Source: Cyanophora paradoxa CCMP329
Taxonomy: Eukaryota; Plantae; Glaucophyta
Length of the DNA: 64,000 nt
NCBI GenBank assembly: GCA_004431415.1
Contig: QPMI01000472.1
Location: 62,001 to 126,000, forward strand
Direction: 5' to 3'
Notes under the pieces: generated by a model
Seen by the model: the letters and a program-made list of their open reading frames with translations, nothing else
Database searches by the model: none
Told to the model about the DNA's origin: nothing
Made by a program: the position numbers and the translations under genes
Shown: piece by piece, positions 31,864-59,723 of the stretch
Layout: every line of letters starts with the position of its first letter
Position numbering within the stretch: the stretch's first letter is position 1

Positions 31864-33001
31864 ACACATATTGAAAAACGAATTTAAATCCCTCCGCTTC
31901 GCGCTTCGCGCTTCGCTCCTGGATTTAAATTCGTTTTTCAATATGTGTTAATTTAATACTAAAATACATATTTTTCGATTAATTTCTTTAACTTTTTATG
32001 CAAACTTTGTATAAAATAATGCAAACTTTGTATTAAAAATGAAAACGCGTTTACCAAAATGCATATTTTCGATTAAACTTCGATAGATTCAATTGATCTT
32101 TTATCGATTGATTATGTACTTTGTTGTTTACATACAAATCTGCGATAGATTAACATTAAACTACTTAAAGAACGATATAATCGCGATTAATTCGCATAAA
32201 TTCGCATAAACTCGATATATCTCTCATGTATTGAAGTAGACCACCGCCCATTCTGTATCGAAAAACGCAAAAAGTGTCACAGAGTTGCATGGTCTCCAAT
32301 TGAACAATCGATTAGATTCCATATGTTCTATAAAACATAATAAATGAATTCAAGTGTGACAGGTAGTATTCAAATGATATTCAGTAAGAGATATATTTGT
32401 TTTTGAGAAAGTCAGTAAGAGGGGTAGAATGTCTGTGACAGGTGTGACAGGTGTGACAGGTGTTTTCAAAAGTCTGTCATTTTTGAAAAATTTAAAAAGT
32501 TTGAAAATAGGTGTCACACCTGTCACACCTGTCACACTCAATTAAACTATCTGTCACACCCGATCTCCTTACCATTTTCAGTAAGACAGAAAAGTATTCA
32601 TGAAATCGACTATTGTTGGGTGGATTTTGAAGGTGTCACACCTGTCACAAAGACTGTTTTCAGTAAGACAACAATAAATTCTTGACAATCTCAGTAATAA
32701 ATAGAGTCTTTTGTTAATTTGGTGTGACGGGTGTGACAGGTGTGACAGGTGTTTTCAAAAGTCTGTCATTTTTGAAAAATTTAAAAAGTTTGAAAATAGG
32801 TGTCACACCTGTCACAGGCGTCACAGTCAATTAAATAGGTGTCACACCCGATTATCGGACCATTTTCAGTAAGCCCATCTGAAATTCTGAATTTCTCAGT
32901 GTCAACTAACTCGGAAATCGCAATACTCTATGTTTCTCCGATTTCTCCAACCCTGAAAACACACCTGTTATTCTCTCATCTATCTCATGAGATACTCTCG
33001 T
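31864..33001. repeat. Left terminal inverted repeat region (~1138 bp) with terminal hairpin and GTGTGACAG iteron cassettes
   Basis: Reverse complement of the right end at its outer ~450 bp and inner 143 bp; palindrome arms at 31864-31891 and 31921-31948. Confidence 0.88.
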
Positions 33002-33048
33002 TTCGCCAAAAATTGACAAACGATTTCCCATCATGCTGTAAAGGAAAC

Positions 33049-33303
33049 ATGCCGATTAACCAGCAATATCACAATTTCCATGGGACTTACATCTTGATTG
33101 TCAAGAAACTCCCAGAGCATTATGAGATCTTCCAAGAGATGGGATTGCGAATTACAAGGAGATCAACCCTTTGTAGATTCTTGAAAAAGAATGGTGCTAA
33201 ATGGGATAAGACAATTCGCAAATGGTATACAGAAGATCCCAAGAGTCCCCTTCTGGATGTTTTCGAAACAGTGAATTTGGATCGGTTTAATCATTACCAA
33301 TAG
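33049..33303 (+). CDS. Small protein with DUF5710-like motif
   Basis: LKKNGAKWDKTIRKWY resembles the K..GA.WD...K.WY signature; AAAAATTGA 33 nt upstream of the ATG. Confidence 0.55.
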   Translation: MPINQQYHNFHGTYILIVKKLPEHYEIFQEMGLRITRRSTLCRFLKKNGAKWDKTIRKWYTEDPKSPLLDVFETVNLDRFNHYQ

Positions 33304-34219
33304 CCAGAAACTCCAACTGGAATGAGTTGTCTATCCCATTCATGTCTACAAGATCACCATAATAATCTCTAAACTCAACTGTTAACTCTCTAATGACCAA
33401 ATTGCGATCGGTTATTTTTATGTATTCACTGTGCTCTCCACTGTGATAAACATACTGTCCAATATCTTTACTTAATTGCAATCTGAGAATCGCCCCTTGA
33501 TTCTGTGGTTGTGATCTTGGGACAATATTGTGGTTTGTAGCAAATGGGGAGAGTTCTTTAATGTGCATGTATAAATACTGTTCTGCATTCATATCTGTCA
33601 TCTTGGATGCTTCTAACTTGTAGTTTAAGCGAGATGCCTCAAATTCATATCCTGTGAATGTTATTCCCCATTGGGGATGGTTTGGGGTGATTGGTACTCC
33701 TGCAAAATAGAGGAAATTCTCTGGGGCATATAAAGACCTTGCAGACTCTGGGAAATCGTAGATGTGCTCAATTGAAGCGACCCAATCAACAGAACTCACC
33801 CCAAGAAGTTTACCCAATCGCTGTGTAGATGCTACCAATTCGAATTGAACATTACTGTAAAACTCTAACTTGTAGGAAGTAGGGTTGTAGTAGACCTTGA
33901 ATGCATATGTGAGATTGTTGCTCCCAGTAAAGGTGAAATTCAGACCATAATTATATGGACTGGTGACCCCGAAATGCCCTTGATTAATATACCCACTTGG
34001 GAGAAGGAAGACCTGTTTGGTTTCAGAGATGCCTTGGTAGAAGAATCTGACAAGAAGGTGGTCTGTTCCAATGGAATTATAGATGCTGTTGGGGATCTCT
34101 GCATACAAAACTCGACATTCTCTTGGTTTGGTTACTGGGGTTGTGAGTGCAACTTTGTAGGAGTTTTCTATTTGTCCATCTGATCGGTCTCTGCTATCTA
34201 TATTGACCAGCCGAATCAT
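33287..34219 (-). CDS. Minor capsid (penton-like, single jelly-roll) protein 1
   Basis: N-terminal IDSRDR...Y.V.L.......AEIPNSIYN and C-terminal LTVEFRDYYG.LVDMNG.DNSF.LEF, typical of PLV/NCLDV pentons; next to the MCP. Confidence 0.8.
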   Translation of the reverse strand: MIRLVNIDSRDRSDGQIENSYKVALTTPVTKPRECRVLYAEIPNSIYNSIGTDHLLVRFFYQGISETKQVFLLPSGYINQGHFGVTSPYNYGLNFTFTGSNNLTYAFKVYYNPTSYKLEFYSNVQFELVASTQRLGKLLGVSSVDWVASIEHIYDFPESARSLYAPENFLYFAGVPITPNHPQWGITFTGYEFEASRLNYKLEASKMTDMNAEQYLYMHIKELSPFATNHNIVPRSQPQNQGAILRLQLSKDIGQYVYHSGEHSEYIKITDRNLVIRELTVEFRDYYGDLVDMNGIDNSFQLEFLAIGND

Positions 34220-34247
34220 TTTAATATATGTTTATAGATAAAAGAAG

Positions 34248-35258
34248 ATGCCTGTGGATTACATTGAAGTGAGCTCTTTCAATACAATTTCGGGAGATGG
34301 ACCTACTTCGAGTTTTATTGCTCGCCTCCCCAGCACATATGAATTTGTAAGAGCAGTAAGACTGGTCTCAGCAGAATTTTATAACAGCATTCCCATGGTG
34401 AGTGGTGAAACCAAACCAGGAGATGTGACAATAGATAATGCAATCTACCTTTATTGGTCTGAATATCTTTCTGGTGCAGGAAGCACTGGTATTCCAACTG
34501 ATCGACCTGCTGCTGATTATGAATCATGGAAACACATTGTGATAAGTCGCAGCACACCCATTCAAAACCACCAACAACTGGTGAATGTAATTAACTCCAA
34601 ACTTGCATTGAGAGAGCCACCAGTAGCAATTCGCTGTAAATGGGATGATACACTGAAACGAGTAATATTCCATTCCACCATACCGTTTTACCTGGCTTTC
34701 TCAACTGCAATAAACCCAACCCAGGCACAGATTCAGAGGTTTTTGAGTTCTGCTCGACTGCTTGGTCTTGATCCTGGGAGATATGGTAACACACCAATCC
34801 AATCACAGGTGTACAATACTCTTACTGATGGTATCTTCACTGGGTCGATGGTGCATGGTATTATATCTTCATTTGAACCCGAGAAGACCAGGGATAGTGT
34901 CCTATTTGTGAGAGTAAAGGAGTTGGGTGATCTTGTGCAATGTGGTGATGGTCTCCTCACTGGATATTTCCACAAAATCGTGGTTCCTGATAAAGATTAT
35001 GGTGAGCATGTCGTTTATAATTCGACAGAAGCCCATCCGATTTATAAATACTATAACAAGAATCTGGGGCTCTCCACATTTTCGGTTGACATTGTGAATG
35101 CAATTAATGAACCAATTGATTTCGAGGGTCAACCTGTCCACCTCACCTTCGAAATTCGATATGGTGATGAACCTGCTGGTGATCCTGTGTACGAATACTT
35201 CAAGAGGAGAATGGCGGAAACACATCCATCTTATCCGGTTATTGCGAATTTTGCGTAA
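34248..35258 (+). CDS. Minor capsid (penton-like) protein 2
   Basis: F...L...Y..V.AVRLVSAEFYNS and C-terminal LSTFSVDIVN..NEPIDFEG.PVHLTFEI pattern. Confidence 0.75.
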   Translation: MPVDYIEVSSFNTISGDGPTSSFIARLPSTYEFVRAVRLVSAEFYNSIPMVSGETKPGDVTIDNAIYLYWSEYLSGAGSTGIPTDRPAADYESWKHIVISRSTPIQNHQQLVNVINSKLALREPPVAIRCKWDDTLKRVIFHSTIPFYLAFSTAINPTQAQIQRFLSSARLLGLDPGRYGNTPIQSQVYNTLTDGIFTGSMVHGIISSFEPEKTRDSVLFVRVKELGDLVQCGDGLLTGYFHKIVVPDKDYGEHVVYNSTEAHPIYKYYNKNLGLSTFSVDIVNAINEPIDFEGQPVHLTFEIRYGDEPAGDPVYEYFKRRMAETHPSYPVIANFA

Positions 35259-35312: not shown

Positions 35313-36686
35313 ATGGATATTACTTCGACCCTCCAACGTCTTTCTCTGAAAGAAGCTCTAACAACCCCAGAAGAAGCCAAGGCGTTCTTCTTGGACAACT
35401 CTCTCATGCTTGGTCTTGAATCCAAGTCGAAGCCAGTTCTTGTTGTTGTGAACCCAAGCAACACTTTTGAGAATAATGCTGGAAATCGCATTTCTTTCAA
35501 GCTCCCTCGCTACAATTTCTGTGGAAAACTCGAACTTGCGTTTGACCTTCCAGCTGTCACTTTTGCTGGTGATACCGACCTTGTTCGCAATGGATACGTT
35601 CGCCCAGTTGGTGCTCTTGTCTCTCGACTTGAAATCACCTATGGATCTTACACTTTCCATGTGCCTTCTGATTTCCTTGCTCATTTCCCTCTTATCTATT
35701 ACAGTGAGGATCAACTCGCCAAGAAGAAGCGTTCAATGGGAATGGTTCATGGTATCCCTGCCCATGGAACCAACCGACTTGGTGGGTCATTTTTCACTGA
35801 AATCCCAGTCCCATGGCTAAACCACTACCTACCTCTTGGTGCTCTCTCAGAAGAAATGGTGGTAACTGTCTGGTTCAAGGATGCTGGAAAGGGTTATGTT
35901 GAGACTTCTTATGGTGGTCGTGCTCTTCCTGTTGTTGGTGGAACAGCTGCTGATAAGACAGAGGATGATGGACTTGGTGCTACTGCTAATGCTACTCTTG
36001 CCCATGTTGGTCAACAGATCACCACTTTTGGAATTGGTGCAACAACAAACCCCGAAATTAAAGTCACTTCTCCTCGTCTTTACATGCATGCTATTAATGT
36101 TTCTGATGAACTGTTTGCTACTGTCATTGAGAAGGTGAAGACCACTGGTATGGCTATTCCTGCTCTGGATATTGGTTTTGTTGACAGTGTCAATTTTGCT
36201 GCAAAAGGCAATGCTCAACCAAATCGTATTAACCTGTCACAGATCTCTGGTCTTGTCTATGGTCTTCTTGTTTCAGTTCGTGATGCCGCAGGTATTGATG
36301 GTTTCAATGGTTCCCACAGTGTCCTAAAAACGCATGCTAACTCAAAAGACATCACTTTCACTGTTGAAATTAATGGTCAACGTCTCTATGCTACTGAGCC
36401 CATCCCTCTCCTCAAAGGTGCCGAATTAATTGCGGATGCCTTCAAGTGCTCAAATATGGACAAGGTTGCAGACAAATATGTCCTCAGTGGTCTACCATTC
36501 TGTGTTGATGGAGAGAAAGCGATTCGCAACATTGCCCAGTCTGGCTATGTTGATCTCACGAACTCCTCCTCTTCTTTCCTCACTCTATACATGCCTTCTG
36601 ACCAGACAATCACAGTTAATGTTCGTGCTCTCATGCACAGTTTCATTATTGTTGACAAAGATGGTCTCCGACGCATTAATCTGTAA
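35313..36686 (+). CDS. Major capsid protein (double jelly-roll, PLV type)
   Basis: 457 aa, beta-rich; ISFKLPR..F...L.L.FDLP, LVSRLEITYG, EIPVPW..YLPL.AL; lies between the pentons and the packaging ATPase. Confidence 0.8.
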   Translation: MDITSTLQRLSLKEALTTPEEAKAFFLDNSLMLGLESKSKPVLVVVNPSNTFENNAGNRISFKLPRYNFCGKLELAFDLPAVTFAGDTDLVRNGYVRPVGALVSRLEITYGSYTFHVPSDFLAHFPLIYYSEDQLAKKKRSMGMVHGIPAHGTNRLGGSFFTEIPVPWLNHYLPLGALSEEMVVTVWFKDAGKGYVETSYGGRALPVVGGTAADKTEDDGLGATANATLAHVGQQITTFGIGATTNPEIKVTSPRLYMHAINVSDELFATVIEKVKTTGMAIPALDIGFVDSVNFAAKGNAQPNRINLSQISGLVYGLLVSVRDAAGIDGFNGSHSVLKTHANSKDITFTVEINGQRLYATEPIPLLKGAELIADAFKCSNMDKVADKYVLSGLPFCVDGEKAIRNIAQSGYVDLTNSSSSFLTLYMPSDQTITVNVRALMHSFIIVDKDGLRRINL

Positions 36687-36748: not shown

Positions 36749-37531
36749 ATGAACGATTTGGAAGAATTTAATGCAGGCGAAATGATAACCCCACCATTTC
36801 GTGCTCTTTTCATAGGAAAGTCTGCAACAGGCAAGTCAGAATGTGTGAAATATTGGTTGAAACAGCTGCATGATGCGAAAAAGATCGATACTGTTCTTGT
36901 TGTGAGTGGGACGTCCTTCAATCATTTCTGGGATGCAGTTGCAACATTGCAACTCGGGAAATGGGATGCTGCTTACATTTCCAAATTACTGGATGAAAGG
37001 CAGGAGAAAATCGAAAAAGGGGAACCTGTGAATCAAATGTGTATTGTCCTTGATGATTTAATAGATAATGAGTTAGTCGATTTAACTCGCGATAAAATTG
37101 TTGGCTCTGTTTTCAATAGGGGGCGCCATGCGATGGTGTCCTGTGTCTGCATAACTCAGAAATTGCGTAAGGTTTCTTCAACAATTCGAGTAAATTCGGA
37201 TTATGCTGTGTTCCTGAGTGCTGCTAATCGCAAAGAACTCGAAGCAATTGAAGAGGAGTACAATATCATGCGAAACAAGGACGATTTCTATAAGATGTTC
37301 GAGGAATATGTACACTCCTACCAATATATTGTGTGGTCTTCTGCAAATTATTCGGTGAACTATTATGTTGATAAAGCGGATTTGGTCAAAGATTTCCCAT
37401 TTCCTCGGTTCCACAGGAAGCCCAAAAAGAAAGAAGATGAACTACCATCTCCACAGAAAGAGGAAGCACCCAAAGAGGTCAAGAGTGGTGTTCATTCAAA
37501 CAAACTGATGCGATATAAGAGAGGATTGTAA
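36749..37531 (+). CDS. A32-like (FtsK-HerA) genome packaging ATPase
   Basis: PFRALFIGKSATGKS (Walker A), IVLDD (Walker B), RGRH, ITQK, IRVNSDY. Confidence 0.93.
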   Translation: MNDLEEFNAGEMITPPFRALFIGKSATGKSECVKYWLKQLHDAKKIDTVLVVSGTSFNHFWDAVATLQLGKWDAAYISKLLDERQEKIEKGEPVNQMCIVLDDLIDNELVDLTRDKIVGSVFNRGRHAMVSCVCITQKLRKVSSTIRVNSDYAVFLSAANRKELEAIEEEYNIMRNKDDFYKMFEEYVHSYQYIVWSSANYSVNYYVDKADLVKDFPFPRFHRKPKKKEDELPSPQKEEAPKEVKSGVHSNKLMRYKRGL

Positions 37532-37559: not shown

Positions 37560-38294
37560 ATGCCTTCGAAACGCAAAGTTGGCGTTCCTGCTGGTGCTAT
37601 GTCATATTCTGCATCATCTGGAACCGGTTCTATTAACACAGATCCCATGAAATTCAATGGTGTCAATGAAGTGAAAGCATCACAGCAACAGGAGGATCCC
37701 CTCAATGCTGCTTACGAAGAATCACCAGATGATAAAGCACCCCAAGCATCCACCAGTGATCAACTCAATATTTCGCCCGAAACCTCTAAGATGAAGGCAG
37801 TTGGTGAAGGAGCTCGTCGAATTATTGGTGCTGCTGATGACAAAGGACTGGGTCTCCAAGATCTCTCACTTGCTCGCAAAGGTGAAGGTGTCTCCAAGGA
37901 ATCAGACAAGGTAATTCAATCCATGGCTGGTGAGGTGACCTACAAGGTCGCACCTACACAGAATATCCACCGAATTCCCAAAGCCCAATGGGACGAAATG
38001 ACTGCGAAACTGAAAGATCTGGAAGCGAAATCCAGTGCTCTTGAACAGTATGTCTCTGAGAAGAAAGAGAGAGCGAAATTGAAGGAGATGCTGCGAAAGG
38101 AGGTGTACAGAATGGGAATCACTGGTCTCCCAGATAAGCAATTCATTGGTAAGAAAGAGACTCAAATTGATGAGCAAGCAGTTGATGAGATGAAGACCAA
38201 AACCCAGAAGGGCACCATTGAACCTGGTGCTACCAAATCAGAGGTTGATAAAGGTGTTGCCCCAACAGTATATAAACGACGAGTTTGGCTTTAA
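37560..38294 (+). CDS. Hypothetical viral protein (244 aa, low complexity/coiled coil; possible core protein)
   Basis: Long ATG ORF co-oriented in the structural module. Confidence 0.65.
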   Translation: MPSKRKVGVPAGAMSYSASSGTGSINTDPMKFNGVNEVKASQQQEDPLNAAYEESPDDKAPQASTSDQLNISPETSKMKAVGEGARRIIGAADDKGLGLQDLSLARKGEGVSKESDKVIQSMAGEVTYKVAPTQNIHRIPKAQWDEMTAKLKDLEAKSSALEQYVSEKKERAKLKEMLRKEVYRMGITGLPDKQFIGKKETQIDEQAVDEMKTKTQKGTIEPGATKSEVDKGVAPTVYKRRVWL

Positions 38295-39178: not shown

Positions 39179-41539
39179 ATGAACGCTGCCGCCAAGAAAT
39201 CCCTGAAACGCCTTGTTGACTGGCTTCGTGAAGACGATGTCCTGTCTGAGAATATCGTAATTCCTGTTGATCCTGATACCAAAAAGCCACTTTTCGCTCA
39301 TAAAGACGGAACCTGGACTTGGGATAAATTCGATGAAGCCCTGAAATCCGGTAAGTATACTGCTTGGGGCATTCTCGCTCGTAATATCATGGTAATTGAC
39401 TTCGACCAAGAGGAGGATTTCGCCAAATTCGAGGAGCAATTCCCTGATGATTTCGGTGGTGTCAATCCACTTGCTAAAACAAAAAAAGGATATCATGCTT
39501 ATTTCGCTCGACCTGCTGAATTCGACACCATTAAGATCTGGGATAAAGCAGGTGCATTCAAAGGAAACCCCAAGATCGACTGCAAAACGATTGCATCCAC
39601 TGGGACTGCTGGGGTAATTAATGTTTGTCCCAGTCCCAACAAAACATGGATCAGAGAGCCATGGGCATCTGAGTGTGAGTTAAATGAACCCACTGCTGAG
39701 TTGCAAAAGTGGATTGTTGAAAACTACGAATTCCCCAAAGGTGCACATTCTTATTATGCAAGGTGCGCTGAGGAGAATTTGCAGAAACATATTCTTTCTA
39801 AACTCGAAGAATTCGGTTTCATCTTGCCCACAATCATCAATGAGACCAAGATGGGATACAATTTCACTGCTGAGAACAAAGGTCTGATCTGTCCCTGCTG
39901 CAAGGGAAGCCATGACTCGAACAATTGGTATATTATTCAAGGAAAGGAGAAAGACAAGTACATTGTTTCGAGTTACAGTGCAAACTGCAAGAAGCGACTT
40001 ATCACAATTCGTGTAAAGGAAGAGACAGATGCGAATATCGAAAATCTGATTGATCGGTCTGCTGGATCTGATGGTGCCCATTATGATGTTGCACAGGTTG
40101 CCTATCTTGTTCTGCAAGACAAATACAAGTATTCCAACAAGACCTGGTTCAAGTTCAATGATGTATGTGGGATTTGGGAGATGGATGAAACTGGGAGGCG
40201 AATCTTTCTCTGTTTGAGCTGCAAGGTCTGTCCAGTTTATCTTCAACGTTCTGTTCAACTCGCACAGAGAGCTCTTCGTGATGAAGAGAACCGCAATTCC
40301 TTGGAGGAAAGGTCAAAGATTCTGCTGGGAATTGCTAAGAGCCTCAAACAGACTACATACAGAACTGCACTTATGTCTGATCTTTCAGTTCTGTTCAGTG
40401 ACAAGACCTTTTTCGAGAGACTTGATACTGTTCCCAACATCATAGGATTCACAAATGGTGTATTTGACTTGAACTCCATGACTTTTCGACAGGGACTCCC
40501 AGATGATATGGTGAGCAAGACTGTTGGCTACGATTATACCACAGAAATTGACCAAGAGAAGGTTGCAAAGATTAAATCCATCTATGCAGATCTGATCGAA
40601 TCTGATGAAAACCGCGAATTTATGATGGGATTAATTGCCTATGCTCTGTGTGGTTTGACAGAAAATCAGAGATACACTTGCTGGACTGGAATTGGAGCAA
40701 ATGGGAAATCTCTGCTCCAAGAGTTGGTGAAAGACACATTTGGTGAATACTATGGGTCACTGGACATGACATATTGGACTAAACCCAAGAAGAGTTCATC
40801 AGAGGCTGCCCCAGAACTCGCTTGCATTCTTGGTAAACGGATTGTTTTCAGTAATGAAGCAGAAGATGGTGATATGCTTCAACTGAACAAAATCAAACAA
40901 GTTACTGGTGGGAATGAGATGAAGGTTCGAACTCTATACAAAGATCTTGTAACATTCATTCCCATGTTCCAGTTGTTCTTGTCTACAAATGACAATCTGG
41001 GGATCAGTAAACCAGATGCAGCAATCCAAAGGCGAATTATCTACTACCGATTCGAAAATGTCTTCAAGGTCGATCCTCAGCCTGGTGAGAAGAAAGCAGA
41101 CATCACTCTAATGCGCCTAATGAAGAATGATGATGATTATAAAATGGCGCATATGTCCATTCTCCTGGAAATGTGGAGAACCCATTCTCTCAATGAATTC
41201 GTCACCAAACCACCCCAGTCCATTGTTGATCAAGGTATGGAGTATTTCAATGAGAATGACAAGATTGGAGAGTGGATTCGAGAGAATTATGAACTCACCA
41301 AGAGTCAAGGCGATTTCACTACAAGTGAGTCCATCATGAGTGACTTCAAGAGAGACCACATGGGCAAATCTGATGAGAAAATCTCAGATTGCACCATTAT
41401 GAAGAGACTTCGCGAAGTCTTTAATGTGAAGTCTGACAGAAAACGAGTGAATGGTGTCCTTGCTCGTGGTTACTTTGGGATCAAAAAGAAGCATGGTCGC
41501 AGATTGATGGATGACAGTGTTGAAGGTGGGGATGAGTAA
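39179..41539 (+). CDS. Primase-polymerase (AEP/PrimPol) fused to a D5-like SF3 helicase
   Basis: MVIDFD and TKKGYHAYF primase motifs; CPCC..H zinc site; IGFTNGVFDL D5_N; GIGANGKS Walker A; FSNEAE Walker B; IKQVTGG; AIQRRI. Confidence 0.92.
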   Translation: MNAAAKKSLKRLVDWLREDDVLSENIVIPVDPDTKKPLFAHKDGTWTWDKFDEALKSGKYTAWGILARNIMVIDFDQEEDFAKFEEQFPDDFGGVNPLAKTKKGYHAYFARPAEFDTIKIWDKAGAFKGNPKIDCKTIASTGTAGVINVCPSPNKTWIREPWASECELNEPTAELQKWIVENYEFPKGAHSYYARCAEENLQKHILSKLEEFGFILPTIINETKMGYNFTAENKGLICPCCKGSHDSNNWYIIQGKEKDKYIVSSYSANCKKRLITIRVKEETDANIENLIDRSAGSDGAHYDVAQVAYLVLQDKYKYSNKTWFKFNDVCGIWEMDETGRRIFLCLSCKVCPVYLQRSVQLAQRALRDEENRNSLEERSKILLGIAKSLKQTTYRTALMSDLSVLFSDKTFFERLDTVPNIIGFTNGVFDLNSMTFRQGLPDDMVSKTVGYDYTTEIDQEKVAKIKSIYADLIESDENREFMMGLIAYALCGLTENQRYTCWTGIGANGKSLLQELVKDTFGEYYGSLDMTYWTKPKKSSSEAAPELACILGKRIVFSNEAEDGDMLQLNKIKQVTGGNEMKVRTLYKDLVTFIPMFQLFLSTNDNLGISKPDAAIQRRIIYYRFENVFKVDPQPGEKKADITLMRLMKNDDDYKMAHMSILLEMWRTHSLNEFVTKPPQSIVDQGMEYFNENDKIGEWIRENYELTKSQGDFTTSESIMSDFKRDHMGKSDEKISDCTIMKRLREVFNVKSDRKRVNGVLARGYFGIKKKHGRRLMDDSVEGGDE

Positions 41540-45392: not shown

Positions 45393-45575
45393 TCTACTTC
45401 ATTAATCTTTCTTTTTCTTTGGTTTCGCTCTCCAAGAAGTAATAAACCGCGAATTAAATGCAGCAGCCAAATACATCTTAATCCAGGATCATTGGGCTCG
45501 ATTGCAAAATAGTTTGGAATTGTGTTCTCTTTCCACACAGACTCTTGCATTTATTATATGAGAGATAAGGTAAAG

Positions 45576-49926: not shown

Positions 49927-50637
49927 TTAAGAATTGTTTACTAATCGGTAATCCTCATCAAACTTTAACAAGTTTGCACGAAATTCCTTTGCCTTTGAAA
50001 ATGCATCTTCCTCTGTGTATTTTTTAAGTGTGAACCGTTTCGAATGTGTTTTCAAATTTCCAGTGTCATCTTTAATTGTTACAATAGCGCAAATATACCA
50101 AACATTCCATCTCTTGTCAAACGATTTGAAAATGTTCGAGGATTCATGAACAAATTTCCGATTGATTGAATTTACCCTCTGAGATACAATTCTGAGATTC
50201 TGTTTCCTATTATCAGATCTGATCTGATTAATGTGATCAATACATTCTTTTTTGCTTTTCCCTTCATACTTCATTACAGCTCTATGCATATGTCGAAACT
50301 TGCATGTGTTTGATGAAACATAACCATTGTGCGAATGCCAAATATGAGAATCCAGAATATCAAAGTCTTCCACATCAATTAATCCAAGAACATCATTCTG
50401 AGTTGTGAATTCAATCGTTTTATCATCAACATATCGATATTTGTTAAACACTTTTCCCTGTGCAATACAAACTTCTTTCAAAGCACTTTCGGCTTCATCT
50501 TTCGTATCAAATCGCTTTTCCTTTCTATTACCGATTTTGTCAAAATACTTCATCAACCACTTCTTTTTACAGTCTGTTCTTTTTGAGAGATAGACAGTTC
50601 CACCATACTTTGCGATGTTATCACTGTAAAGCCACAT
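49927..50637 (-). CDS. HNH homing endonuclease, copy B
   Basis: Identical translation to 5092-5802. Confidence 0.88.
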   Translation of the reverse strand: MWLYSDNIAKYGGTVYLSKRTDCKKKWLMKYFDKIGNRKEKRFDTKDEAESALKEVCIAQGKVFNKYRYVDDKTIEFTTQNDVLGLIDVEDFDILDSHIWHSHNGYVSSNTCKFRHMHRAVMKYEGKSKKECIDHINQIRSDNRKQNLRIVSQRVNSINRKFVHESSNIFKSFDKRWNVWYICAIVTIKDDTGNLKTHSKRFTLKKYTEEDAFSKAKEFRANLLKFDEDYRLVNNS

Positions 50638-50761: not shown

Positions 50762-53700
50762 ATGAGTTTCAATTATCCAGCAAACCTACAAACCATTCCC
50801 TCATCAGGAAGAGGGAAGACAGATAACAAACATGTAAATTTCGATAACTTGACAGCCAGAGGGTCAATCTCAATTGACCACAGTGCAGATGAACCCTCAA
50901 AGACTCACCCAAGAGAGCATGCACTTTCAATAAACGAAATGGATCCCGAAAAGGAGGATGTGAGTGTTGCTTTCAGCATGGGAAATGTGAAATCGAATCA
51001 GGTAGCCCAGATTAAAGCAACCAGGAGCAGACCAAGAAAACTGAAAACCAGTGGAACCCACCCAGATATTCCAACTCGATTCGATAGTGGTAGGTTAATA
51101 TTCAATGTTCAAAATGAGAAGGGTGGGCATCAGAGTGGTTTGAGAATCTATAATGAAGGATCAAATGCAATTGCACAAATTCCCGAAATATTACAGATAG
51201 CCCCCATGGAGAAACCAACAAAATCGAGTTCACTAACAATGTTTATCCAAGAGATATTGTGGAGAATGCGGCTTCTAATGCGCAATTCGGTTTCCAACTA
51301 CCTGGTGATACAGCAAAGAATAAGGCGTCTATCACTGTCAACAGTAGCCCCACTCAATCAGTAACAATTCATTTACATCCAGACCTTGTCGAAATGGATA
51401 GACACCTTTTACCTTTGGTGACAAACACCAAAGATCTTGGTATTAGAACCAGACAATGGCGAAATATCCATGGAAGCAATGTCTATGCAAATGGAGAGAA
51501 ACTTGTAAGTGAGAAGACCATAAGAGAGATCTTTGAGTATTATGGACCTGTCCCAGTTCCCTTCCCACTACCATGGATCCACCAGATTTAACACCGAAAA
51601 AGCAACCAGGCAGAGAGTACACAGCAGATGAGACAGTTCCTTTTGGTCAACACATTGTGAGTTGGGAGCAGGTTCGAAATAAACCTATAATTGAACCAAG
51701 AAAGCAAATTGATGAGCAATATTTACCTCCTGAAATCGATATTTTGGAGCTTGACGAATACCAGTTCGTTCCAGATGAGGAGGAATACCTTCCTGATGGT
51801 TTCGACCCACAGGAGTATGAATATGATCAATATGACCCCAATGAGGAAGAGTATTTACCAGATGGTTTAGATCCACAAGAGTATGAGTATGAGCAAAATT
51901 ATGAACCCCATGAGGAATATTTAGCAGATGGTCACGAACCACCAGTTGTGGATTATGAGCAACCATATGAACCCCATGAAGAATTATTACCAGATGGATT
52001 TCGCCAGAGATTTGGGAATTCTTCCCTGATTGGGAGCAGATCAACAATAAACCAGCCAGATTTCCACCAGAGGATCACAACCATGACTGGGATGAGATCT
52101 TAGGTAAACCAGAGAAATTCCCACCAGAGGATCATAGGCACGATTGGGAAGACATTGATAATGTCCCTCTCACATTTACACCATCTACACATCGTCACAT
52201 TTGGAGCGAAATAGACGAACAGCCAGTTTTTGCACAATTAAATGCAATCGGAAACGTTTTTAATGGGGTCACACTTTACCAATCGATTAATATACCTGAA
52301 AGGCTATTTTTGAATGATCATTATGTTAGTCTCAATGGGTCATTTACAGGTCAAGAAGGCACACCGATGGTGGGAACTCTTGCAGTAAGATTACCCAGGG
52401 ATCCAATCGTAAATGGAGTGTATAGTGGTGATTTCAACGTAGGAGTGAACGATACTTTCCCCAGTATTTATGTTACGAATTATCACCCAGGGGAAACAGG
52501 ACAAGTAGCGGATTTTTCAGCAGCTATTCAAGTAAATGTAACGGATCAAAGCGCATATGATGGAGCAAGACCTAAAATAGTTTTCACAAGGGAGAAAGTT
52601 GTAAACTATCTTCCTGTTGCAGGACAACCCACAGATGATCACGGTAAATGTGAGATGGCGTGGATTAAGACAACAACAGGTGGCGCCTTAGAAGTCAATC
52701 AGAGAATGGCGGCGAAAAACTTACATAATACAACCCTTTCAGGAGTGGTTACAGATGATTACCTAACCAATAAAGGATATCTTACCTCAGCAGATTTAAG
52801 CACTTACACAACCGATGCAGAATTAGCGGCAGCACTTGCGAATTATCTACCTCTCACAGGTGGAACTGTAACAGGAACTGTGAATGCTACCACTTTACAA
52901 ATTGGCGGTAACACAATACCGAAAGGTTTCGATTTTGACCAATTAGATACTGTTTCGACAGATAGAAGCGCAAATAATTGGACTGTTAATTGGACAGGAC
53001 ATAGAACGGGACAAACAGGATGTTACACCACACCTGAGAATGATGCAGATGTTACGGGTTGTTGGATGCGTTGGGCAATACCAGAAGGTATGAAATCGTT
53101 TTATATTCAACTTTTAAATTGGCATAATTGTAGATATTTCGATATTTACGGTGAAACTGTTAATGGATATCAGCATTTCTTAAAACGTGTTAATCACTAT
53201 CAAGCAATACAAGATAGCGGAATTCAAGATGGTACCTATAATGCTATTATCTATACTTCTATAAACTGTGATTTCTATAAAAAGATTGTGGTAAAAGGTG
53301 TGAAAGGTCGCATTTATTTTACGGGTGTGTTTGGTTGGAGTCGTCAGAGAGCAACCGATAATGATGTTGGATTAATTCATTATGATAATATCGCTTTTAA
53401 TCCTGTCGGCAAATATTCCGATTTCGATGTGGTGAGTGGTTGGAATAGCACAGGTGTATCATTCCAGCCGGAGCTTGGACAACAGGATGGAAACCCACAA
53501 CAGATAACCCAGTGGAAGGTTTTTATAGCAACCAAATAGATGATGAAAGTGGTAGTGGGTATATGCAATGTCAAGTGCCGGCAGGAATGAAAACATGTCA
53601 CATACAATACTTATGTTGGACAAATCACAGATATTTTGATATTTACGGATACCGCAACAGTCGATGGAATTATATTATGAGAGTAAATACGTATCAAAAT

Positions 53701-55742
53701 GTTCAAAACACAGCCGACACAGCTTGGCATTCGAGTTTATTATGGACATCCGTATTTTGTGGGAGTTTCTCATATATTGGAATTTTCGCAAAGAAAGGAC
53801 GAACTCACATTGGAATGCTTGGATGGACAAAAGAAGTAGGTAGAACAGCGCCAGCGAATGGTTTGATAAGTTGGGATAACGTTTACAGTCGTCCGGCGTT
53901 ATTTACAGCCGCAGACCTTCCAGGAACGGCAATATGGGCAGTACAGACATGGCTTACATCAACAGATAGCGTTCCGCGTTTTTATTTTGGAAATGGTATT
54001 ACTACATACATTCGAGGATATGAGGATGGTAACGGTGTGTCGATTGAGTTTAGAAATTCAGCAGATGCATGGCTATTAAGATCGTATTCAAATGGTAACC
54101 TTGCAGTTAACAATACTGTGTCAGCTCCAACCATAAGTGGAACGATTATTAATGGGGGTTCGATAAATGCAACTACAAACTATAAATTTGGCGACAAAAC
54201 AATGCCTCGATGTGTAGAATATGATGCATCAGTTGCAGCAAATTCGCCACATGGTTATGCAGGAGGTTGGGGTTTTGAAGGTGGAACAGCATGGGAACCC
54301 TACTATAATTACGGTGGGTATGCTTACAATAATGAGAGTGGCGACACTGTTGTTAACGGCTCATGGGTTGATTACACAATACCCACTGATTTATATACAG
54401 GAACAGCCCACTTAACATATCTCCCTTGGGTAAATTGTCGTTACTTTGAGATTTGGGGAATTAATAGACAAGGAAATGCGGTTTTCATTGCAAGAGTGAA
54501 TAGTTATCATCAATATGAAAGCGCACCAGATGGAAACCACAATGGTTTACAAAATGTCCCTATTATGTTGGGAAATCGCTTTATTCGCCTTCGTATTATT
54601 CCAAAGGTAGGAAGAGTTCACATAATGGGCATTGGATTTACTCGCACTTGGACAGGAAGTAGTTATGGTGGTCACACAGGTTATGTTTCTTGGGATAACA
54701 TTTATAGTAAACCAAATCTACTAACAACAAATTTAGTTGGAAATATTACAGGTTTTGATACTTGGAGTGGAACAGGTAGTGGTGGTCTATCATTTAGTGG
54801 TGGTTGGACAACAGGTTGGACGGCTTCTTATTCTAATCCTGTGGAGGGATTTTACAGCTATATAGCAGATGATTCCACAAGTGGAGATTGGGCGCAAATT
54901 GAAGTCCCAGCAAATATGCAAACATGCCATGTCCAATATTTGTGTTGGTCGAATAGTCGATATTTCGATATTGGAGGCTATCGAGCAGGTCGATGGTTCC
55001 ACATTATGCGAGTTAATACTTATCAGACTGTCTCAAATTATGGAACCACAGATTATCACGATGGATTGGCGTGGGCTTCTTTTGCTTGTGATTATTTCAC
55101 ACATGTAAGATTTGTTGCAAGAAAAGGGAGATGTTATATTGGTATGGTTGGATGGACGAAAGAAAAAGGGAGAACCTCACCAGCAAATGGTATGATCAGT
55201 TGGGATAATGTTTATAGTAAAGATGCTCGCACAACTTGGGAAACCGGAACATGGATAACATCAAGTGATAATTATTCAAGAATATATTTCGGTACATCAT
55301 CGACTACATACATTAAAGGTTATGGTTACGAAATGATCCATTTTAGAAATGGAATTGATATAACAATGCAAGCTTTTTATAATGATGGTGACGTTTACTT
55401 TTGGGATGGCTTACACAAGGAAGTGATAGAAGATACAAAACCGACATTAAAAATATAACCGGCGCCCTTTCAGCAATCGAACAATTACAGGGTGTGAGTT
55501 ATAAAAAGATTGGTGATGAAAAACAGAAAGTTAACTTAGGTTTGATTGCGCAAGATGTCCAAAAAGTCATACCAGAAGTAGTAGGTAAAAATCACGAAAA
55601 TTATTTAACCCTTGCATACACAGGTTTAATTCCAGTTCTCATTGAAGCTGTGAAGGAGTTGTCCCAAAAATGCAAAGCTTTAACACAAACCTGTCAGAAT
55701 CTCCAAAGTCAAATAAACCAAATTAAAAATGTCACAGTATAA
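50762..55742 (+). CDS. Fibre protein with S74 chaperone, copy B (several 1-nt frameshifts)
   Basis: Duplicate of 5927-10910. Confidence 0.8.
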
Positions 55743-55745: not shown

Positions 55746-56051
55746 ATGGCGACCTATCCACTTGGTGGAACCACCTATTCTACTGAGCCTGTTGCGCTTT
55801 CTTTCGATACAATCACCCTTGTAAACGCATTACAAACAGTTGAAAAAACGATTCAGCAAACTAACAAACTGTCACCGGTTGTTCATGAATATAAAAACCT
55901 CTTGGTTAATGTCCTTGCGCAATCGGCTCATGGTGACCCAGTAAAAAAATATGGTGAATGTGATTCTAACCTCAAAGCGATGACATCCAACATCCAATGT
56001 CTAACAACCGCTTACCAATCTCTTGGATCCAATCTAATTGCTTTGGCTTGA
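55746..56051 (+). CDS. Hypothetical viral protein, copy B
   Basis: Identical to 10914-11219. Confidence 0.65.
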   Translation: MATYPLGGTTYSTEPVALSFDTITLVNALQTVEKTIQQTNKLSPVVHEYKNLLVNVLAQSAHGDPVKKYGECDSNLKAMTSNIQCLTTAYQSLGSNLIALA

Positions 56052-56090
56052 ATGGTGTTTATTTTTCTTTCCTTCTTAGTAAAAGAAGCA

Positions 56091-56969
56091 ATGGGTGAAT
56101 ATAATCGAGTTCAACTTCCAATATATTCCCTTGGATCCCCTGCAATGCACTTTCGCCAACACGAAGTTAATGATGAAGTTCGTGGTTTAGAATCCACAGA
56201 GAGACCCAATTCCAATGGTAACTCCTTTGATAAAAATTCGATTATTCGAGTTAAAGAACTGAGAGCAGACAAGAATTCTGGTGTGGTTAAAACAACTCGA
56301 CTCCTTGTCTCAAATGCAAACTTTTTTCAACCTACTAATGGAGGTCCTGATGCATACAGTGTTGATCTGAAAGCCCTCGATTTCGATAAGAATTCTGCTG
56401 CTGTTACTGTGAGATCAGGAGGAGCATTTATTGGTGGTGGTTGCAGAGTCTCAGGTCAACTCTCTTCATCAATTGCATACAATGATGTCCCAGATACTCT
56501 ACCCCAAAATGTAGAGGATCCTCAACGAATTCGCTTGTATGCTCCTGTTTCCCAGCAACCTTTCATTCAGTTCTTCAATGAAATAACAGTTACACTTCTT
56601 AACTCTGTGGTTCCTGAGGGATTCCCAAATGAGAGAGTGGTTTATAATAATCAAGTTCCCATGGCTTTACAATCTCTCTGTCGTCCTGCAAACAATCAAA
56701 TCGGTCATTATTACTTGTATTTCGTCCAACCTCACTTGCATTTCGGTCGGGGTTATTGCTCTGTTGGAAATGGGGGAGCTGCTTCATATGATCTGCATGT
56801 TACTGATCTTGGAACCTATCGAATTCTGATTGTTGGAGCAAGAACAGATATTGCTGCTGTGTCTGCTCTTCGTGGGTATAATCCCAATGACATTTTGAAT
56901 ACAGCATTTTATTCCGAGCCAGATATTATAGACGACCCCACCCATAAAAGATATATCTGTTTAATGTAA
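56091..56969 (+). CDS. Putative virion protein paralog 1, copy B
   Basis: Duplicate of 11259-12116; a terminal 1-nt deletion shifts the stop. Confidence 0.68.
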   Translation: MGEYNRVQLPIYSLGSPAMHFRQHEVNDEVRGLESTERPNSNGNSFDKNSIIRVKELRADKNSGVVKTTRLLVSNANFFQPTNGGPDAYSVDLKALDFDKNSAAVTVRSGGAFIGGGCRVSGQLSSSIAYNDVPDTLPQNVEDPQRIRLYAPVSQQPFIQFFNEITVTLLNSVVPEGFPNERVVYNNQVPMALQSLCRPANNQIGHYYLYFVQPHLHFGRGYCSVGNGGAASYDLHVTDLGTYRILIVGARTDIAAVSALRGYNPNDILNTAFYSEPDIIDDPTHKRYICLM

Positions 56970-56970
56970 A

Positions 56971-57798
56971 ATGGCTGCCCCAGTAGAGCGAATTATTACA
57001 CCCCAACTCTCATTAGCAGCACCTGCGAATCACGTTTTGCAGCATGCTACCTTTGATGATGTAGAAGGTCTCCAATCGACAGAAGTACAACCTACCATGA
57101 ATACATTTGGTTCCACCCATAAACTGAGATTGCAGGAACTCAGATGTGATAAAAATAATGGAATAGTTAAGACAACGAAACTCCTTGTCACAAATGCAAA
57201 CTTTTCTGCCCATTATGGAGACCCAGACAGTTATGGTGATCCTCTGTCTACTTATTCTTTTGAATCTCGGTCGGGAGCTATTAACTGCAAAACGGGGGGA
57301 GCATATATTGGTGATGGTCTTCGGGTTGGTGGAGCTGTTGGTGCGCCTCTTTTCGTAAATGATCAACCCAATCCCATTGATCCAAACACCAGAATTCGCA
57401 CCTATGTCCCCAGTATGAATGCACCATATATTATCAAGATCTTCCCAATTGTTGTGAATGAACAGACATCAGTAGTTGATTCTCTTGTTGAAATTGGTGA
57501 CCACTACAAGGTGGTCGTGGATATTCCACCAGATGTTTATGCTGTCTGTCAAGTAGAGGGTGGAACCCCAAATATTGCAGTTGTGATCACCCCATATGAC
57601 AATTTCGGAATTGCTTATCATGGAGTGAATTTCGGTCTTGAAGATTACCAGTTCTTGGTGAGAGCCACCAGGTTTGGTATCTACAAATGCATTCTCTATG
57701 CTGAGAGAACCGATGCTATTGCAAAACAGAATACATATGCAGAATATTACGGCACAAATCGCTACTTCCCCATTTTCGGGCAGGATACTGCTCCATAG
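56971..57798 (+). CDS. Putative virion protein paralog 2, copy B
   Basis: Identical to 12140-12967. Confidence 0.7.
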   Translation: MAAPVERIITPQLSLAAPANHVLQHATFDDVEGLQSTEVQPTMNTFGSTHKLRLQELRCDKNNGIVKTTKLLVTNANFSAHYGDPDSYGDPLSTYSFESRSGAINCKTGGAYIGDGLRVGGAVGAPLFVNDQPNPIDPNTRIRTYVPSMNAPYIIKIFPIVVNEQTSVVDSLVEIGDHYKVVVDIPPDVYAVCQVEGGTPNIAVVITPYDNFGIAYHGVNFGLEDYQFLVRATRFGIYKCILYAERTDAIAKQNTYAEYYGTNRYFPIFGQDTAP

Positions 57799-57823
57799 AA
57801 ATCTCAGGTATATATAGAGAGGG

Positions 57824-58096
57824 ATGGATGATAAAACAAAGAAATTCATAGAATCTGCAATGATGGTTCATGGTGATGCTAAATTCGATTATACTGAGAC
57901 AGTGTATAAGAAAGCACAAGAGAAGGTCTCTGTTAGATGCCTTAAATGCAACAAGATCCTGCAAACCTACCCATTTAATCATGTAAGGGGCAGTGGATGC
58001 AGAGAATGCAACAAGAAATCCTCTCATGCATATAGAAAAAAGACGACATCAGGAATTGTGATAGATGATAAACCAGTGGTACTGTACTTTGATTAG
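57824..58096 (+). CDS. Small zinc-ribbon (DUF723-like) protein, copy B, intact
   Basis: CLKC...HVRGSGCREC. Confidence 0.68.
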   Translation: MDDKTKKFIESAMMVHGDAKFDYTETVYKKAQEKVSVRCLKCNKILQTYPFNHVRGSGCRECNKKSSHAYRKKTTSGIVIDDKPVVLYFD

Positions 58097-58282
58097 ATCT
58101 TTGAGAGAGAGATGAGGATCTTGCCCCATTTTCCCTTTGTGATTATGCATGTATCAAAACAGTTTGGACAGGTCTTATGGTAATGCAGCAGGATGATATC
58201 CACCAACTCATAAGGTAGCACTCTTGCTAAGATGGTTCGCATTCTACCAATCGCGTTTTTAATTTTTCTAAATTATTCATAA

Positions 58283-58684
58283 ATGAATACTCATCGAGGC
58301 TTCCATGTGATGCTGGATTACAAATTCAGAACCCAATTAGCAGTAGGAATGGAGGACTTGGAGACAACAACCAGGTGGTTAATGCAGTTCTTGCAAACTA
58401 TTATTCAAGAGCAAGGTATTCGAGTAGTTCACAAGCATTGCGAGATTTTCGATGGTGGTATTTCTCCTCCTGGTTTTGCAATGGTTCTTCTGCTGGATGA
58501 GAGCCACTGCACTGCTCATTGTTACTCAAATGAAGGTATGTTGGCGATTGATATATTCAGTTGTGGATTAGAAGCAGAGAGAAAAACCACGAGAGTATCT
58601 CATGAGATAGATGAGAGAATAACAGGTGTGTTTTCAGGGTTGGAGAAATCGGAGAAACATAGAGTATTGCGATTTCCGAGTTAG
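58283..58684 (+). CDS. speD: S-adenosylmethionine decarboxylase proenzyme, copy B
   Basis: Identical to 13451-13852; ESH cleavage motif. Confidence 0.88.
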   Translation: MNTHRGFHVMLDYKFRTQLAVGMEDLETTTRWLMQFLQTIIQEQGIRVVHKHCEIFDGGISPPGFAMVLLLDESHCTAHCYSNEGMLAIDIFSCGLEAERKTTRVSHEIDERITGVFSGLEKSEKHRVLRFPS

Positions 58685-59723
58685 TTGACACTGAGAAATT
58701 CAGAATTTCAGATGGGCTTACTGAAAATGGTGTAGTAGGCACTTTAAAAATCGAAGTAGGCACTTTTTAATTGAAGTTAGGCACTTTTAATTGACGTTAG
58801 GCACTTAGGCACCTTTTCTGGAAATTCTCTATAAAAACTAAAATCAACGTTTTGAAAAACACAAGTTGATGTATTTGGGACTTCTTTTTAATTCTCGATT
58901 AAGAAGTGCCTAACCGCCTAAACCGCCTACCAAAGATGCCTACTTCGATTGATCGATCGGAGACCATGCAACTCTGTGACAATTTTTCGAAGAGAAAATG
59001 CCCATCCCCAATCTTCTCAATTGTTTAATTGGAGACCATGCAACTCTGTGACACTTTTCAATGCAAAAATGTACATCAGCAATCTCATCGATTCTTTAAT
59101 TGGACATAATGCAGTACCGATATATTCCAATAGAAAATCCCGCAATCTAATCGATTGTTTAATTGGAGATAATGCAACTCTGTGACACTTTTTGGGTGCA
59201 AAAATGTACATCCGCAATCCCATCGATTGTTTAATTGGACATAATGCAACTCTGTGACACTTTTTGCGTTTTTCGATACAGAATGGGCGGTGGTCCACTT
59301 CAATACCAAAGAGATATATCGAGTTTATGCGAATTTATGCGAATTTATGCGAATTAATCGCGATTATATCGTTCTTTAAGTAGTTTAATGTTAATCAATC
59401 GAAGTTATATATGTAATCGACAAAGAACATATTATATCGATATAATATCGATTGAATCAATCGTGAATATGCATTAAATTAAACGCGTTTATCATTTTTA
59501 ATACAAAGTTTGCATTACTTTATACAAAGTTTGCATTATTTTATACAAAGTTTGCATTATTTTATACAAAGTTTGCATAAAAAGTTAAAGAAATTAATCG
59601 ATAAATATGTATTTTAGTATTAAATTAACACATATTGAAAAACGAATTTAAATCCAGAGTGAATCGAGATCGCGAAGTGATCGAGATGAACGAAGGGATT
59701 TAAATTCGTTTTTCAATATGTGT
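58589..59723. repeat. Right terminal inverted repeat region of copy B
   Basis: Same as 13757-14891; hairpin arms at 59628-59655 and 59696-59723. Confidence 0.88.

What the first reader, a model, noticed from the sequence alone, without database searches (positions are those of the whole stretch)
31864..59723. Complete endogenous Polinton-like virus with an unusual gene combination
Seen: pPolB, rve integrase, an intact-looking primase-D5 helicase, MCP, two pentons, an A32 ATPase, a lipase, a phage-like fibre and AdoMetDC within ~1.1 kb inverted ends. No adenain-like maturation protease is recognisable. Known: canonical Mavericks carry pPolB, integrase and protease, whereas PLVs generally lack the protease. 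Inference: a recently active, virion-forming protist PLV that may represent an undescribed lineage, with two alternative replication modules.
Basis: partly seen in the sequence, partly recalled or inferred. Interest (0 to 1): 0.85.

Follow-up and report, generated by a model that had tools for sequence, protein, structure and literature searches.

The report
Algal provirus with phage-style replication origin
This is one copy of an already catalogued family of integrated DNA viruses, most likely from the alga Cyanophora, whose polymerase has lost its proofreading motifs and whose primase-helicase gene is followed by a phage-like repeat array that likely acts as its replication origin, so the two replication enzymes probably work together rather than as alternatives.

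Summary
The 27.9 kb low-GC element is real, and most named genes check out; the two pentons stayed unconfirmed. It is not undescribed: its capsid belongs to the Cyanophora paradoxa viral elements catalogued in two papers' supplements, one of which tabulates the same gene set (pPolB, D5 helicase, rve, lipase, S74 fibre, AdoMetDC, no protease) over 156 elements. The frame breaks in pPolB, integrase, lipase and fibre are probably assembly errors. This copy has no target duplication, unmatched ends, and a right half identical to a neighbouring copy, so it is probably a mosaic of two insertions. New here: the pPolB lacks all three proofreading motifs kept by 7 of 7 relatives, as mavirus pPolB does; an inverted iteron/AT-rich cassette lies 69 bp behind the primase-helicase gene and twice in the left end; the same iteron lies at the 3' end of primase/helicase genes in 12 of 22 viral contigs holding it (control motif 0 of 17). 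Both termini carry perfect 28-bp palindromes. Best reading: one combined replisome with an internal origin, not two alternative modules. Virions, expression and origin activity are untested.

The parts
31864..59723 (.). Whole integrated element, 27,860 bp, about 40% GC; no target-site duplication
31864..31948 (.). Left terminal palindrome, perfect 28-bp arms
   Evidence: 6 exact arms in the window, 0 in 100 shuffles
31864..33001 (+). Left terminal repeat: shared outer part, two iteron cassettes, shared inner 143 bp
32434..32537 (.). Iteron cassette 1: three 9-bp repeats, AT-rich core (78% AT), three inverted repeats
32723..32846 (.). Iteron cassette 2, near-copy of cassette 1
33287..34219 (-). 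310 aa, penton-like by recalled motif only
   Evidence: no hit
34248..35258 (+). 336 aa, penton-like by recalled motif only
   Evidence: no hit; fold failed
35313..36686 (+). Major capsid protein, 457 aa, double-jelly-roll type, Cyanophora family
36749..37531 (+). A32-like packaging ATPase
37560..38294 (+). 244 aa, no family
39179..41539 (+). Prim-Pol primase fused to D5-like SF3 helicase; C-terminus aligns with a Pox_D5-like winged-helix region
41607..41712 (.). Iteron cassette 3, starting 69 bp behind the primase-helicase stop; predicted origin
42112..45392 (+). pPolB, split by a one-base break near 43530; vOTU Cys235/His336 kept; ExoI and ExoII acidic residues lost, about 100 residues with ExoIII missing near 43916; polymerase motifs A, B, C intact
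45558..46973 (+). rve-type integrase; one-base breaks near 45727, 46125, 46785 here, one 472-aa frame in the copy at 866-2284
47379..47911 (.). Short-repeat and palindromic array; the two window copies switch from about 1% different to identical here
48359..49899 (-). Patatin phospholipase fused to F5/8 type C domain (break near 48862; one 513-aa frame in the other copy)
49927..50637 (-). HNH-AP2 endonuclease, absent from most family members (joint 49881 to 50702 in 4 of 4 runs)
50762..55742 (+). Long fibre gene with internal repeats and C-terminal Peptidase_S74 chaperone; several one-base breaks
55746..56051 (+). 101 aa, no family at cut-off
56052..56969 (+). 305 aa unknown, paralogue of the next gene
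   Evidence: 35% identity, E 5e-39
56971..57798 (+). 275 aa unknown, paralogue of the previous gene
57824..58096 (+). 90 aa zinc-finger module like those of phage endonucleases
58283..58684 (+). Prokaryote-type AdoMetDC homologue; its 3' end lies in the inner part of the right repeat
58589..59723 (-). Right terminal repeat, with a different repeat cassette at 58736-58930
59628..59723 (.). Right terminal palindrome, same 28-bp arms, different loop
1..14891 (+). Second, partial copy of the same family (pPolB end to right terminus), followed by 2.4 kb of host DNA that also follows the main copy

Best explanation
This is an integrated double-jelly-roll DNA virus of the family already catalogued in Cyanophora paradoxa, whose proofreading-deficient protein-primed polymerase likely works together with a separate primase-helicase that is predicted to load on an iteron/AT-rich origin placed right behind its own gene and in the terminal repeat. 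Shown: gene content, loss of the exonuclease motifs, intact polymerase and vOTU motifs, the cassette and its position, terminal palindromes, many close copies. Inferred: the helicase binds the iterons through its C-terminal winged helix, melts the AT-rich core and primes; pPolB extends, and its terminal-protein part primes the free linear ends; the rve integrase inserts new copies; MCP, A32 ATPase, probable pentons, fibre and patatin-F5/8 protein build and deliver a particle, perhaps with a helper giant virus (analogy only). This particular copy is probably a join of the left part of one insertion and the right part of its neighbour. Confidence that it is a Cyanophora-family PLV is about 0.95; the figure below is for the joint-replisome and origin mechanism.
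For: Family: closest MCP is a Cyanophora paradoxa protein that Bellas 2023 lists as an HHpred-confirmed MCP beside a closer 465-aa one (42 of the first 46 residues identical, read by eye); Bulzu 2025 Table S6 gives the same gene set for 156 glaucophyte elements, all nine protease columns 0. Polymerase: ExoI, ExoII and ExoIII are present in 7 of the 7 full-length relatives aligned (8 loci fetched, one truncated and left out) and altered or deleted here; motifs A, B, C intact; vOTU Cys and His invariant in 8 of 8 rows. Krupovic 2024 reports exonuclease loss going with gain of a separate SF3 helicase in mavirus. Origin: 12 exact 9-bp iterons in the element against a mean of 0.18 (max 2) in 100 simulations; layout matches the SaPI origin description; the exact 19-mer sits at or inside the 3' end of a primase/helicase gene in 12 of 22 viral contigs (about 8 independent), one with the same Prim-Pol/D5_N/SF3/Pox_D5 layout, and a 21-mer in 7 of 45 prokaryotic loci (6 distinct); control motif 0 of 17. 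Mosaic copy: 29 substitutions in the first 2,990 bases shared with the neighbour, then almost only one-base gaps over 14.3 kb; no target duplication, unmatched ends.
Against: No binding, replication, expression or particle data. 10 of 22 viral and 38 of 45 prokaryotic motif matches are not at a primase/helicase gene (several are coding repeats), so the motif alone does not prove function. The C-terminal winged helix has no Pfam or PDB hit of its own. Only 40 of 156 published elements have D5_N and 49 have PF03175, and the table does not show which co-occur, so the pairing may be loose. Short-read contigs vary in the helicase 3' part and upstream of cassette 3, so cassette and helicase may not co-vary. 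The right-end cassette has a different repeat with no matching gene and no support from the control search. No listed contig was shown to span the exonuclease deletion.
Confidence: 0.6

Rival explanations
1. Replicon turnover caught midway: a mobile primase-helicase with its own origin has invaded the element and its terminal repeat, and the pPolB is decaying, so the two modules are alternatives.
For: Barth 2024 proposes this model and notes a repeat both in the Gezel-14T TIR and just downstream of its end module; a 2026 preprint shows elements with a second replicase, one from this host's contigs; the end cassettes are exchangeable; pPolB C-end shows 4 non-synonymous against 3 synonymous changes.
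Against: pPolB keeps vOTU and all polymerase motifs and is one frame in contigs of 3 of 4 runs; the integrase is under purifying selection; no tyrosine recombinase is present; loss is confined to the exonuclease, as in mavirus.
Confidence: 0.25
2. The cassettes are promoter, packaging or integrase-binding repeats and have nothing to do with the helicase; pPolB replicates the genome from its ends alone.
For: Two of three cassettes lie in a terminal repeat, where such sites are expected; many motif matches elsewhere are not at helicase genes.
Against: One cassette is internal, 69 bp behind the helicase stop, and the same repeat marks 3' ends of primase/helicase genes in unrelated phages.
Confidence: 0.1
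3. The element is a dead, frameshifted relic.
For: pPolB, integrase, lipase and fibre are broken as assembled.
Against: Short-read contigs carry one more base at the breaks near 43530, 45727, 46125, 48862, 51200, 51574, 52003 and 55402, and the same kind of one-base gap occurs in host flanks (30445, and one in 60901-61670); the second copy reads through most of them. Contigs pool many copies, so this exact copy is not proven intact.
Confidence: 0.05

Closest known systems
Cyanophora paradoxa endogenous viral elements (Bellas et al. 2023, PMC10120064, Tables S2 and S4; Bulzu et al. 2025, PMC12220804, Table S6)
   Same: Same MCP family (366 MCP hits in two clusters marked 'new'); same gene set in 156 elements: A32 139, PF03175 49, D5_N 40, rve 85, HNH_3 40, S74 37, lipases 89, AdoMet_dc 66, protease 0; patatin-F5/8 fusion mentioned in the main text.
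   Different: This is a member, not a different thing. The passages and rows I read give no group name or class, and nothing on exonuclease loss, origin cassettes or terminal palindromes.
Mavirus and endogenous mavirus-like elements
   Same: pPolB lacking most of the exonuclease, separate SF3 helicase, rve integrase, TIRs.
   Different: No maturation protease and no detectable match to a virophage MCP; the helicase here carries its own primase; the pPolB is 30-35% identical to exonuclease-intact polymerases of environmental contigs, which suggests an independent loss.
Maverick/Polinton (Polintoviricetes)
   Same: pPolB with vOTU, rve integrase, A32 ATPase, DJR MCP, TIRs.
   Different: No adenain found; MCP does not hit PF21738 and gives no profile match to three PF21738 capsids; no target duplication at this copy.
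SaPI/PICI Pri-Rep plus origin (PMC9371898)
   Same: Primase-helicase gene followed at once by iterons in opposite orientation around an AT-rich centre; SF3 helicase with a C-terminal winged-helix-like region.
   Different: Bacterial satellites using host polymerase; here the cassette is in a eukaryotic virus with its own pPolB and is repeated in the terminal repeat. Works-like claim only.
Gezel-14T end module and the replicon-turnover model (Barth et al. 2024, PMC11296320)
   Same: A repeat present both in the TIR and right behind the primase-helicase module; repeats proposed as origin.
   Different: Gezel-14T has a tyrosine recombinase; no iteron layout was given in the passages read.

Membership tests
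PLV in the broad sense (small eukaryotic DJR viruses) | [quoted passage not shown] | tested here: met
   Published HHpred 98.47% over 406 columns for the 59-60% identical P0001; own low-confidence model ranks DJR capsids first (Foldseek E about 2e-3; VIA Z 9.0, rmsd 4.0, 153 aligned), first jelly roll only
PLV in the broad sense (small eukaryotic DJR viruses) | A32-like packaging ATPase | tested here: met
   Pox_A32 E 1.7e-11
PLV in the broad sense (small eukaryotic DJR viruses) | Single-jelly-roll penton | tested here: inconclusive
   No family hit; fold of one candidate failed; no pairwise match to a DUF5901 protein
PLV in the broad sense (small eukaryotic DJR viruses) | 14-40 kb with terminal inverted repeats | tested here: met
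   27.9 kb; ends related but unmatched in the middle
Cyanophora EVE family (Bellas 2023, Bulzu 2025) | MCP of the Cyanophora clusters | tested here: met
Cyanophora EVE family (Bellas 2023, Bulzu 2025) | Gene set without protease, with rve, lipase, AdoMetDC | tested here: met
Maverick/Polinton (Polintoviricetes) | pPolB and rve integrase | tested here: met
   exonuclease motifs lost
Maverick/Polinton (Polintoviricetes) | Adenain/Ulp1-type maturation protease | tested here: not met
   No hit among 29 frames scanned with Pfam and 20 with PHROGs, gaps read in six frames, one chance-like motif match; a very divergent one cannot be excluded
Maverick/Polinton (Polintoviricetes) | Polinton-type MCP | tested here: inconclusive
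   No PF21738 hit; hhalign probability 0.2% with shallow profiles of 3 sequences each
Maverick/Polinton (Polintoviricetes) | 5-6 bp target-site duplication | tested here: not met
   None at six end offsets; the copy is probably a mosaic, so the family may still make them
Virophages (mavirus type) | Virophage MCP and cysteine protease | tested here: not met
   No Sputnik_MCP Pfam hit, no profile match, no protease
Virophages (mavirus type) | Exonuclease-less pPolB plus separate SF3 helicase plus rve | tested here: met
Virophages (mavirus type) | Dependence on a giant virus | not testable with these tools
   no data
Aquintoviricetes | Placement in MCP and ATPase trees with TsV/Gezel-type PLVs | not testable with these tools
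   Only 2 MCP and 1 ATPase relatives were retrievable; no reference set at hand
SaPI/PICI-type iteron origin (works like) | Iterons right behind the helicase gene, inverted about an AT-rich core | tested here: met
SaPI/PICI-type iteron origin (works like) | C-terminal winged helix on the helicase | tested here: inconclusive
   Aligns at 22% to a phage protein through its Pox_D5-like region; no direct hit
SaPI/PICI-type iteron origin (works like) | Specific binding and melting by the helicase | not testable with these tools
   needs a binding assay

The most novel reading that the evidence does not exclude
An unnamed class-level lineage of glaucophyte viruses has independently rebuilt the mavirus-type replisome (proofreading-less pPolB plus SF3 helicase) and taken from phages a complete primase-helicase-plus-iteron origin unit. 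Origins inside the terminal repeats would let the integrated provirus be copied out of the chromosome without free ends, the terminal palindromes would serve to cut or fold the new ends, and exchange of the end cassettes would switch which helicase drives a copy. That would give a testable answer to how integrated Polinton-type viruses leave the host genome.
Probability: 0.2. Interest if true: 0.75.

Novelty: new variant of a known kind. Interest (0 to 1): 0.5.

Why it matters
The element and its gene list are not new, but the cis-acting side of PLV replication is nearly blank. A short, defined candidate origin next to its cognate primase-helicase, shared in sequence with repeats behind phage primase-helicases, can be tested with one protein and one 110-bp fragment. 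An independent case of exonuclease loss paired with a helicase would support the rule drawn from mavirus. The family sits in a culturable alga at many copies, so induction and particles can be looked for.

Tried and rejected
No whole genome is held for this window, so copies outside it could not be read. MCP relatives: 2 among 1.84 billion representatives, the same 2 by profile, none in viral or metagenome contigs, no PDB sequence match. ATPase and integrase found no relative in viral contigs; ATPase 1 relative at 83%. The protein atlas gave no answer. Both folds were low confidence (pLDDT 36.5 and 36.0); the penton search was noise. hhalign of the MCP profile against capsid candidates from pPolB-related contigs gave nothing. 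No RNA holder listed; this says nothing on expression. The terminal 21-mer matched 2 metagenome contigs with no further similarity. The right-end repeat as a helicase origin: 0 of 17 matches at a helicase 3' end (one primase-helicase gene starts about 400 bp from a match, two matches lie beside parB). Real tandem duplication or mis-join could not be told apart: the repeated flank and the unrepeated flank have similar contig depth (X1 151-170 and 176-191), half-depth side contigs occur at both, and the contig ends exactly at 62150 in 3 of 4 runs. No tRNA. Earlier findings of the scan: nothing relevant in three look-ups. No tree was built: too few relatives. No complex was predicted.
Full report
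Observation. Window 31864-59723 is a 27,860-bp island of about 40% GC in host DNA of about 65% GC. Pfam on 29 frames found an A32 ATPase, a 786-aa Prim-Pol/D5_N/SF3 protein, pPolB, patatin, an F5/8 domain, HNH-AP2 and AdoMetDC. The integrase and the fibre end were scored on a second, partial copy at 1-14891, where they are less broken: PHROG transposase E 2.3e-11, Pfam rve E 0.002 (below cut-off), Peptidase_S74 E 6e-18. No adenain-like protease was found in these scans, in six-frame reading of the gaps, or by a motif scan. The two penton candidates have no hit and one failed to fold; I call them penton-like from recalled motifs only.

Capsid. The 457-aa protein has only 2 relatives among 1.84 billion representatives: P0001 from Cyanophora paradoxa at 59-60% and an unnamed one. 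A three-sequence fold was poor (pLDDT 36.5), yet its first ten PDB matches are all double-jelly-roll capsid or scaffold proteins at E 2e-3 to 9e-3, and the wide search puts the Orf virus scaffold first (Z 9.0, rmsd 4.0, 153 aligned). This supports the first jelly roll only. The stronger basis is published: Table S2 of Bellas 2023 (PMC10120064; passages and supplement rows read, file cut) lists P0001 with an HHpred match of 98.47% over 406 columns to an iridovirus MCP, and a closer 465-aa Cyanophora MCP that shares 42 of the first 46 residues with ours, read by eye. The host is therefore most likely Cyanophora paradoxa or a close relative; all 20 listed holders are runs of one coded organism, none on record as RNA.

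Prior description. Bellas 2023 counts 366 MCP hits in this species, 272 and 94 in two clusters marked 'new'; the main text does not name it. Bulzu 2025 (PMC12220804; passages, section 11 and Table S6 read) tabulates 156 glaucophyte elements: A32 139, PF03175 49, D5_N 40, Prim-Pol 8, PIF1 34, HNH_3 40, rve 85, S74 37, lipases 89, AdoMet_dc 66, and 0 in all nine protease columns; its text mentions the patatin-F5/8 fusion in this group. Starrett 2021 (PMC8502044, passages) notes adintovirus-like proteins in this alga. A 2026 preprint (10.64898/2026.10.13.758929; passages and section 13, figures not seen) describes elements with two replicases and tandem integration, one example from this species.

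State of this copy. As assembled, pPolB, integrase, lipase and fibre are split by one-base breaks. Short-read contigs carry one more base at eight of these places (near 43530 in 3 of 4 runs; 45727, 46125, 48862, 51200, 51574, 52003, 55402 in 4 of 4) and show the same kind of gap in host flanks (26 further indel rows were not shown). These are probably long-read errors, though contigs pool many copies. Single contigs over the element have depth 1,800-2,800 against 150-190 on the flanks in run X1, a rough sign of ten or more close copies. Between the two window copies the integrase has 15 synonymous and 1 non-synonymous change, the pPolB end 3 and 4. The HNH-AP2 gene is skipped by a joint in 4 of 4 runs at higher depth than the form with it (1381 against 485 in X1), so it is a mobile passenger.

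Mosaic. Window 1-17319 repeats 44693-62150, host flank included. The first 2,990 bases differ by 29 substitutions; beyond a repeat array at 47.4-47.9 kb there is one mismatch and ten one-base gaps in 14.3 kb. There is no target duplication, and the ends agree in only 743 of 1228 columns: a shared outer part, a shared inner 143 bp, and different cassettes between. The simplest account is a join of the left part of one insertion with the right part and flank of its neighbour, by unequal crossing-over or by the assembler; depth and contig ends did not decide which. The species is reported as more likely haploid (PMC6704402, passages).

Polymerase. Eight viral contigs encode relatives at 30-35%; they sit with Polinton-type or virophage-type capsids. 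In the seven full-length ones the three exonuclease motifs are present; in ours the ExoI and ExoII acidic residues are replaced and about 100 residues holding ExoIII are missing, while motifs A, B and C are intact. These are three separate in-frame changes, unlike the one-base errors. The vOTU Cys and His are invariant in 8 of 8 rows. Krupovic 2024 (10.1101/2024.03.18.585575, passages) describes vOTU as the likely cutter of the terminal protein and notes that exonuclease loss goes with gain of a helicase, a separate SF3 gene in mavirus. The helicase here is then more likely a partner than an alternative.

Origin-like cassette. Three 9-bp repeats, a 51-bp core of 75-78% AT and inverted repeats start 69 bp behind the helicase stop and recur twice in the left end; the element holds 12 exact repeats against 0.18 expected. 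SaPI origins are described as iterons right behind the rep gene, opposed about an AT-rich centre and bound by a C-terminal winged helix (PMC9371898, passages). A search of viral contigs with the exact 19-mer gave 22 loci. I scanned one frame per locus, the one ending at, overlapping or nearest the match (22 of 60 listed): in 12 of 22, about 8 independent, it is a primase or helicase gene whose 3' end lies within 400 bp; one has the same domain order as ours and aligns to it through the C-terminus. The other 10 are mostly coding repeats. In prokaryotic genomes a 21-mer gave 45 loci; 22 had a long frame ending nearby, and 7 (6 distinct) are DUF927, DUF5906 or AAA_25 genes (DUF927 as a Rep-helicase domain is recalled). 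A control motif from the right-end cassette gave 0 of 17. Barth 2024 (PMC11296320, passages) already proposed repeats as PLV origins and saw a repeat both in the TIR and behind the end module of Gezel-14T. I found no iteron description for PLVs: 'iteron' occurs 0 times in the 15 papers listed of 18, and the repeat string is in no held paper; subscription papers are not covered.

Other features. Both termini are perfect 28-bp palindromes with different loops (6 arms, 0 by chance); their role is unexplained. The AdoMetDC homologue is common in the family but not discussed: no paper held both 'Polinton' and the enzyme name. Viral homologues of this type can be true AdoMetDCs or ornithine or arginine decarboxylases (PMC9992855, passages), so the substrate is open.

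Verdict. A real, probably functional family, already catalogued; this copy is likely a mosaic. It works like a mavirus-type replisome with a SaPI-like origin, but fails membership of Polintons and virophages on the protease and is unplaced by capsid. Novelty: new variant of a known kind. Interest 0.5.

Noticed in passing
L009, L010, L011, L013, L017, L019, L020, L023, L025, L027, L028, L029; L056, L061, L063, L065, L077, L078, L094: One 9-bp repeat recurs at the 3' ends of unrelated primase/helicase genes (VapE, SF3, AAA_25, DUF927, NrS-1 type) in phages and prokaryotic elements; it may be a widespread origin iteron that no held paper prints.
   Followed up: partly
window 22856-29654 (-): LINE-like retrotransposon in several frames (endonuclease Pfam E 3.7e-9; reverse transcriptase and RNase H motifs by eye), lying inside a cysteine-repeat host gene region.
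   Followed up: no
window 62724-63208: Small element with 12-bp inverted ends and an 8-bp direct repeat on both sides, like a non-autonomous hAT transposon (read; family recalled).
   Followed up: no
window 62151-62700: AT-rich insertion with a tandem palindromic array, starting exactly where the 17.3-kb duplication ends; high contig depth.
   Followed up: partly
window 53367-55417: Short-read joints skip 196 to 1820 bases within the fibre gene, suggesting fibre length variants among copies.
   Followed up: no
window 56052-57798: Two tandem paralogous genes with no family hit, with high contig depth in this region.
   Followed up: no
window 58945-59269 and 32265-32318: A roughly 70-bp unit repeated four times in the right end and once in the left end.
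   Followed up: no
L004:3-3839 and 10170-12044: An environmental contig pairs a Polinton-type, exonuclease-intact pPolB with a Sputnik-type capsid.
   Followed up: no
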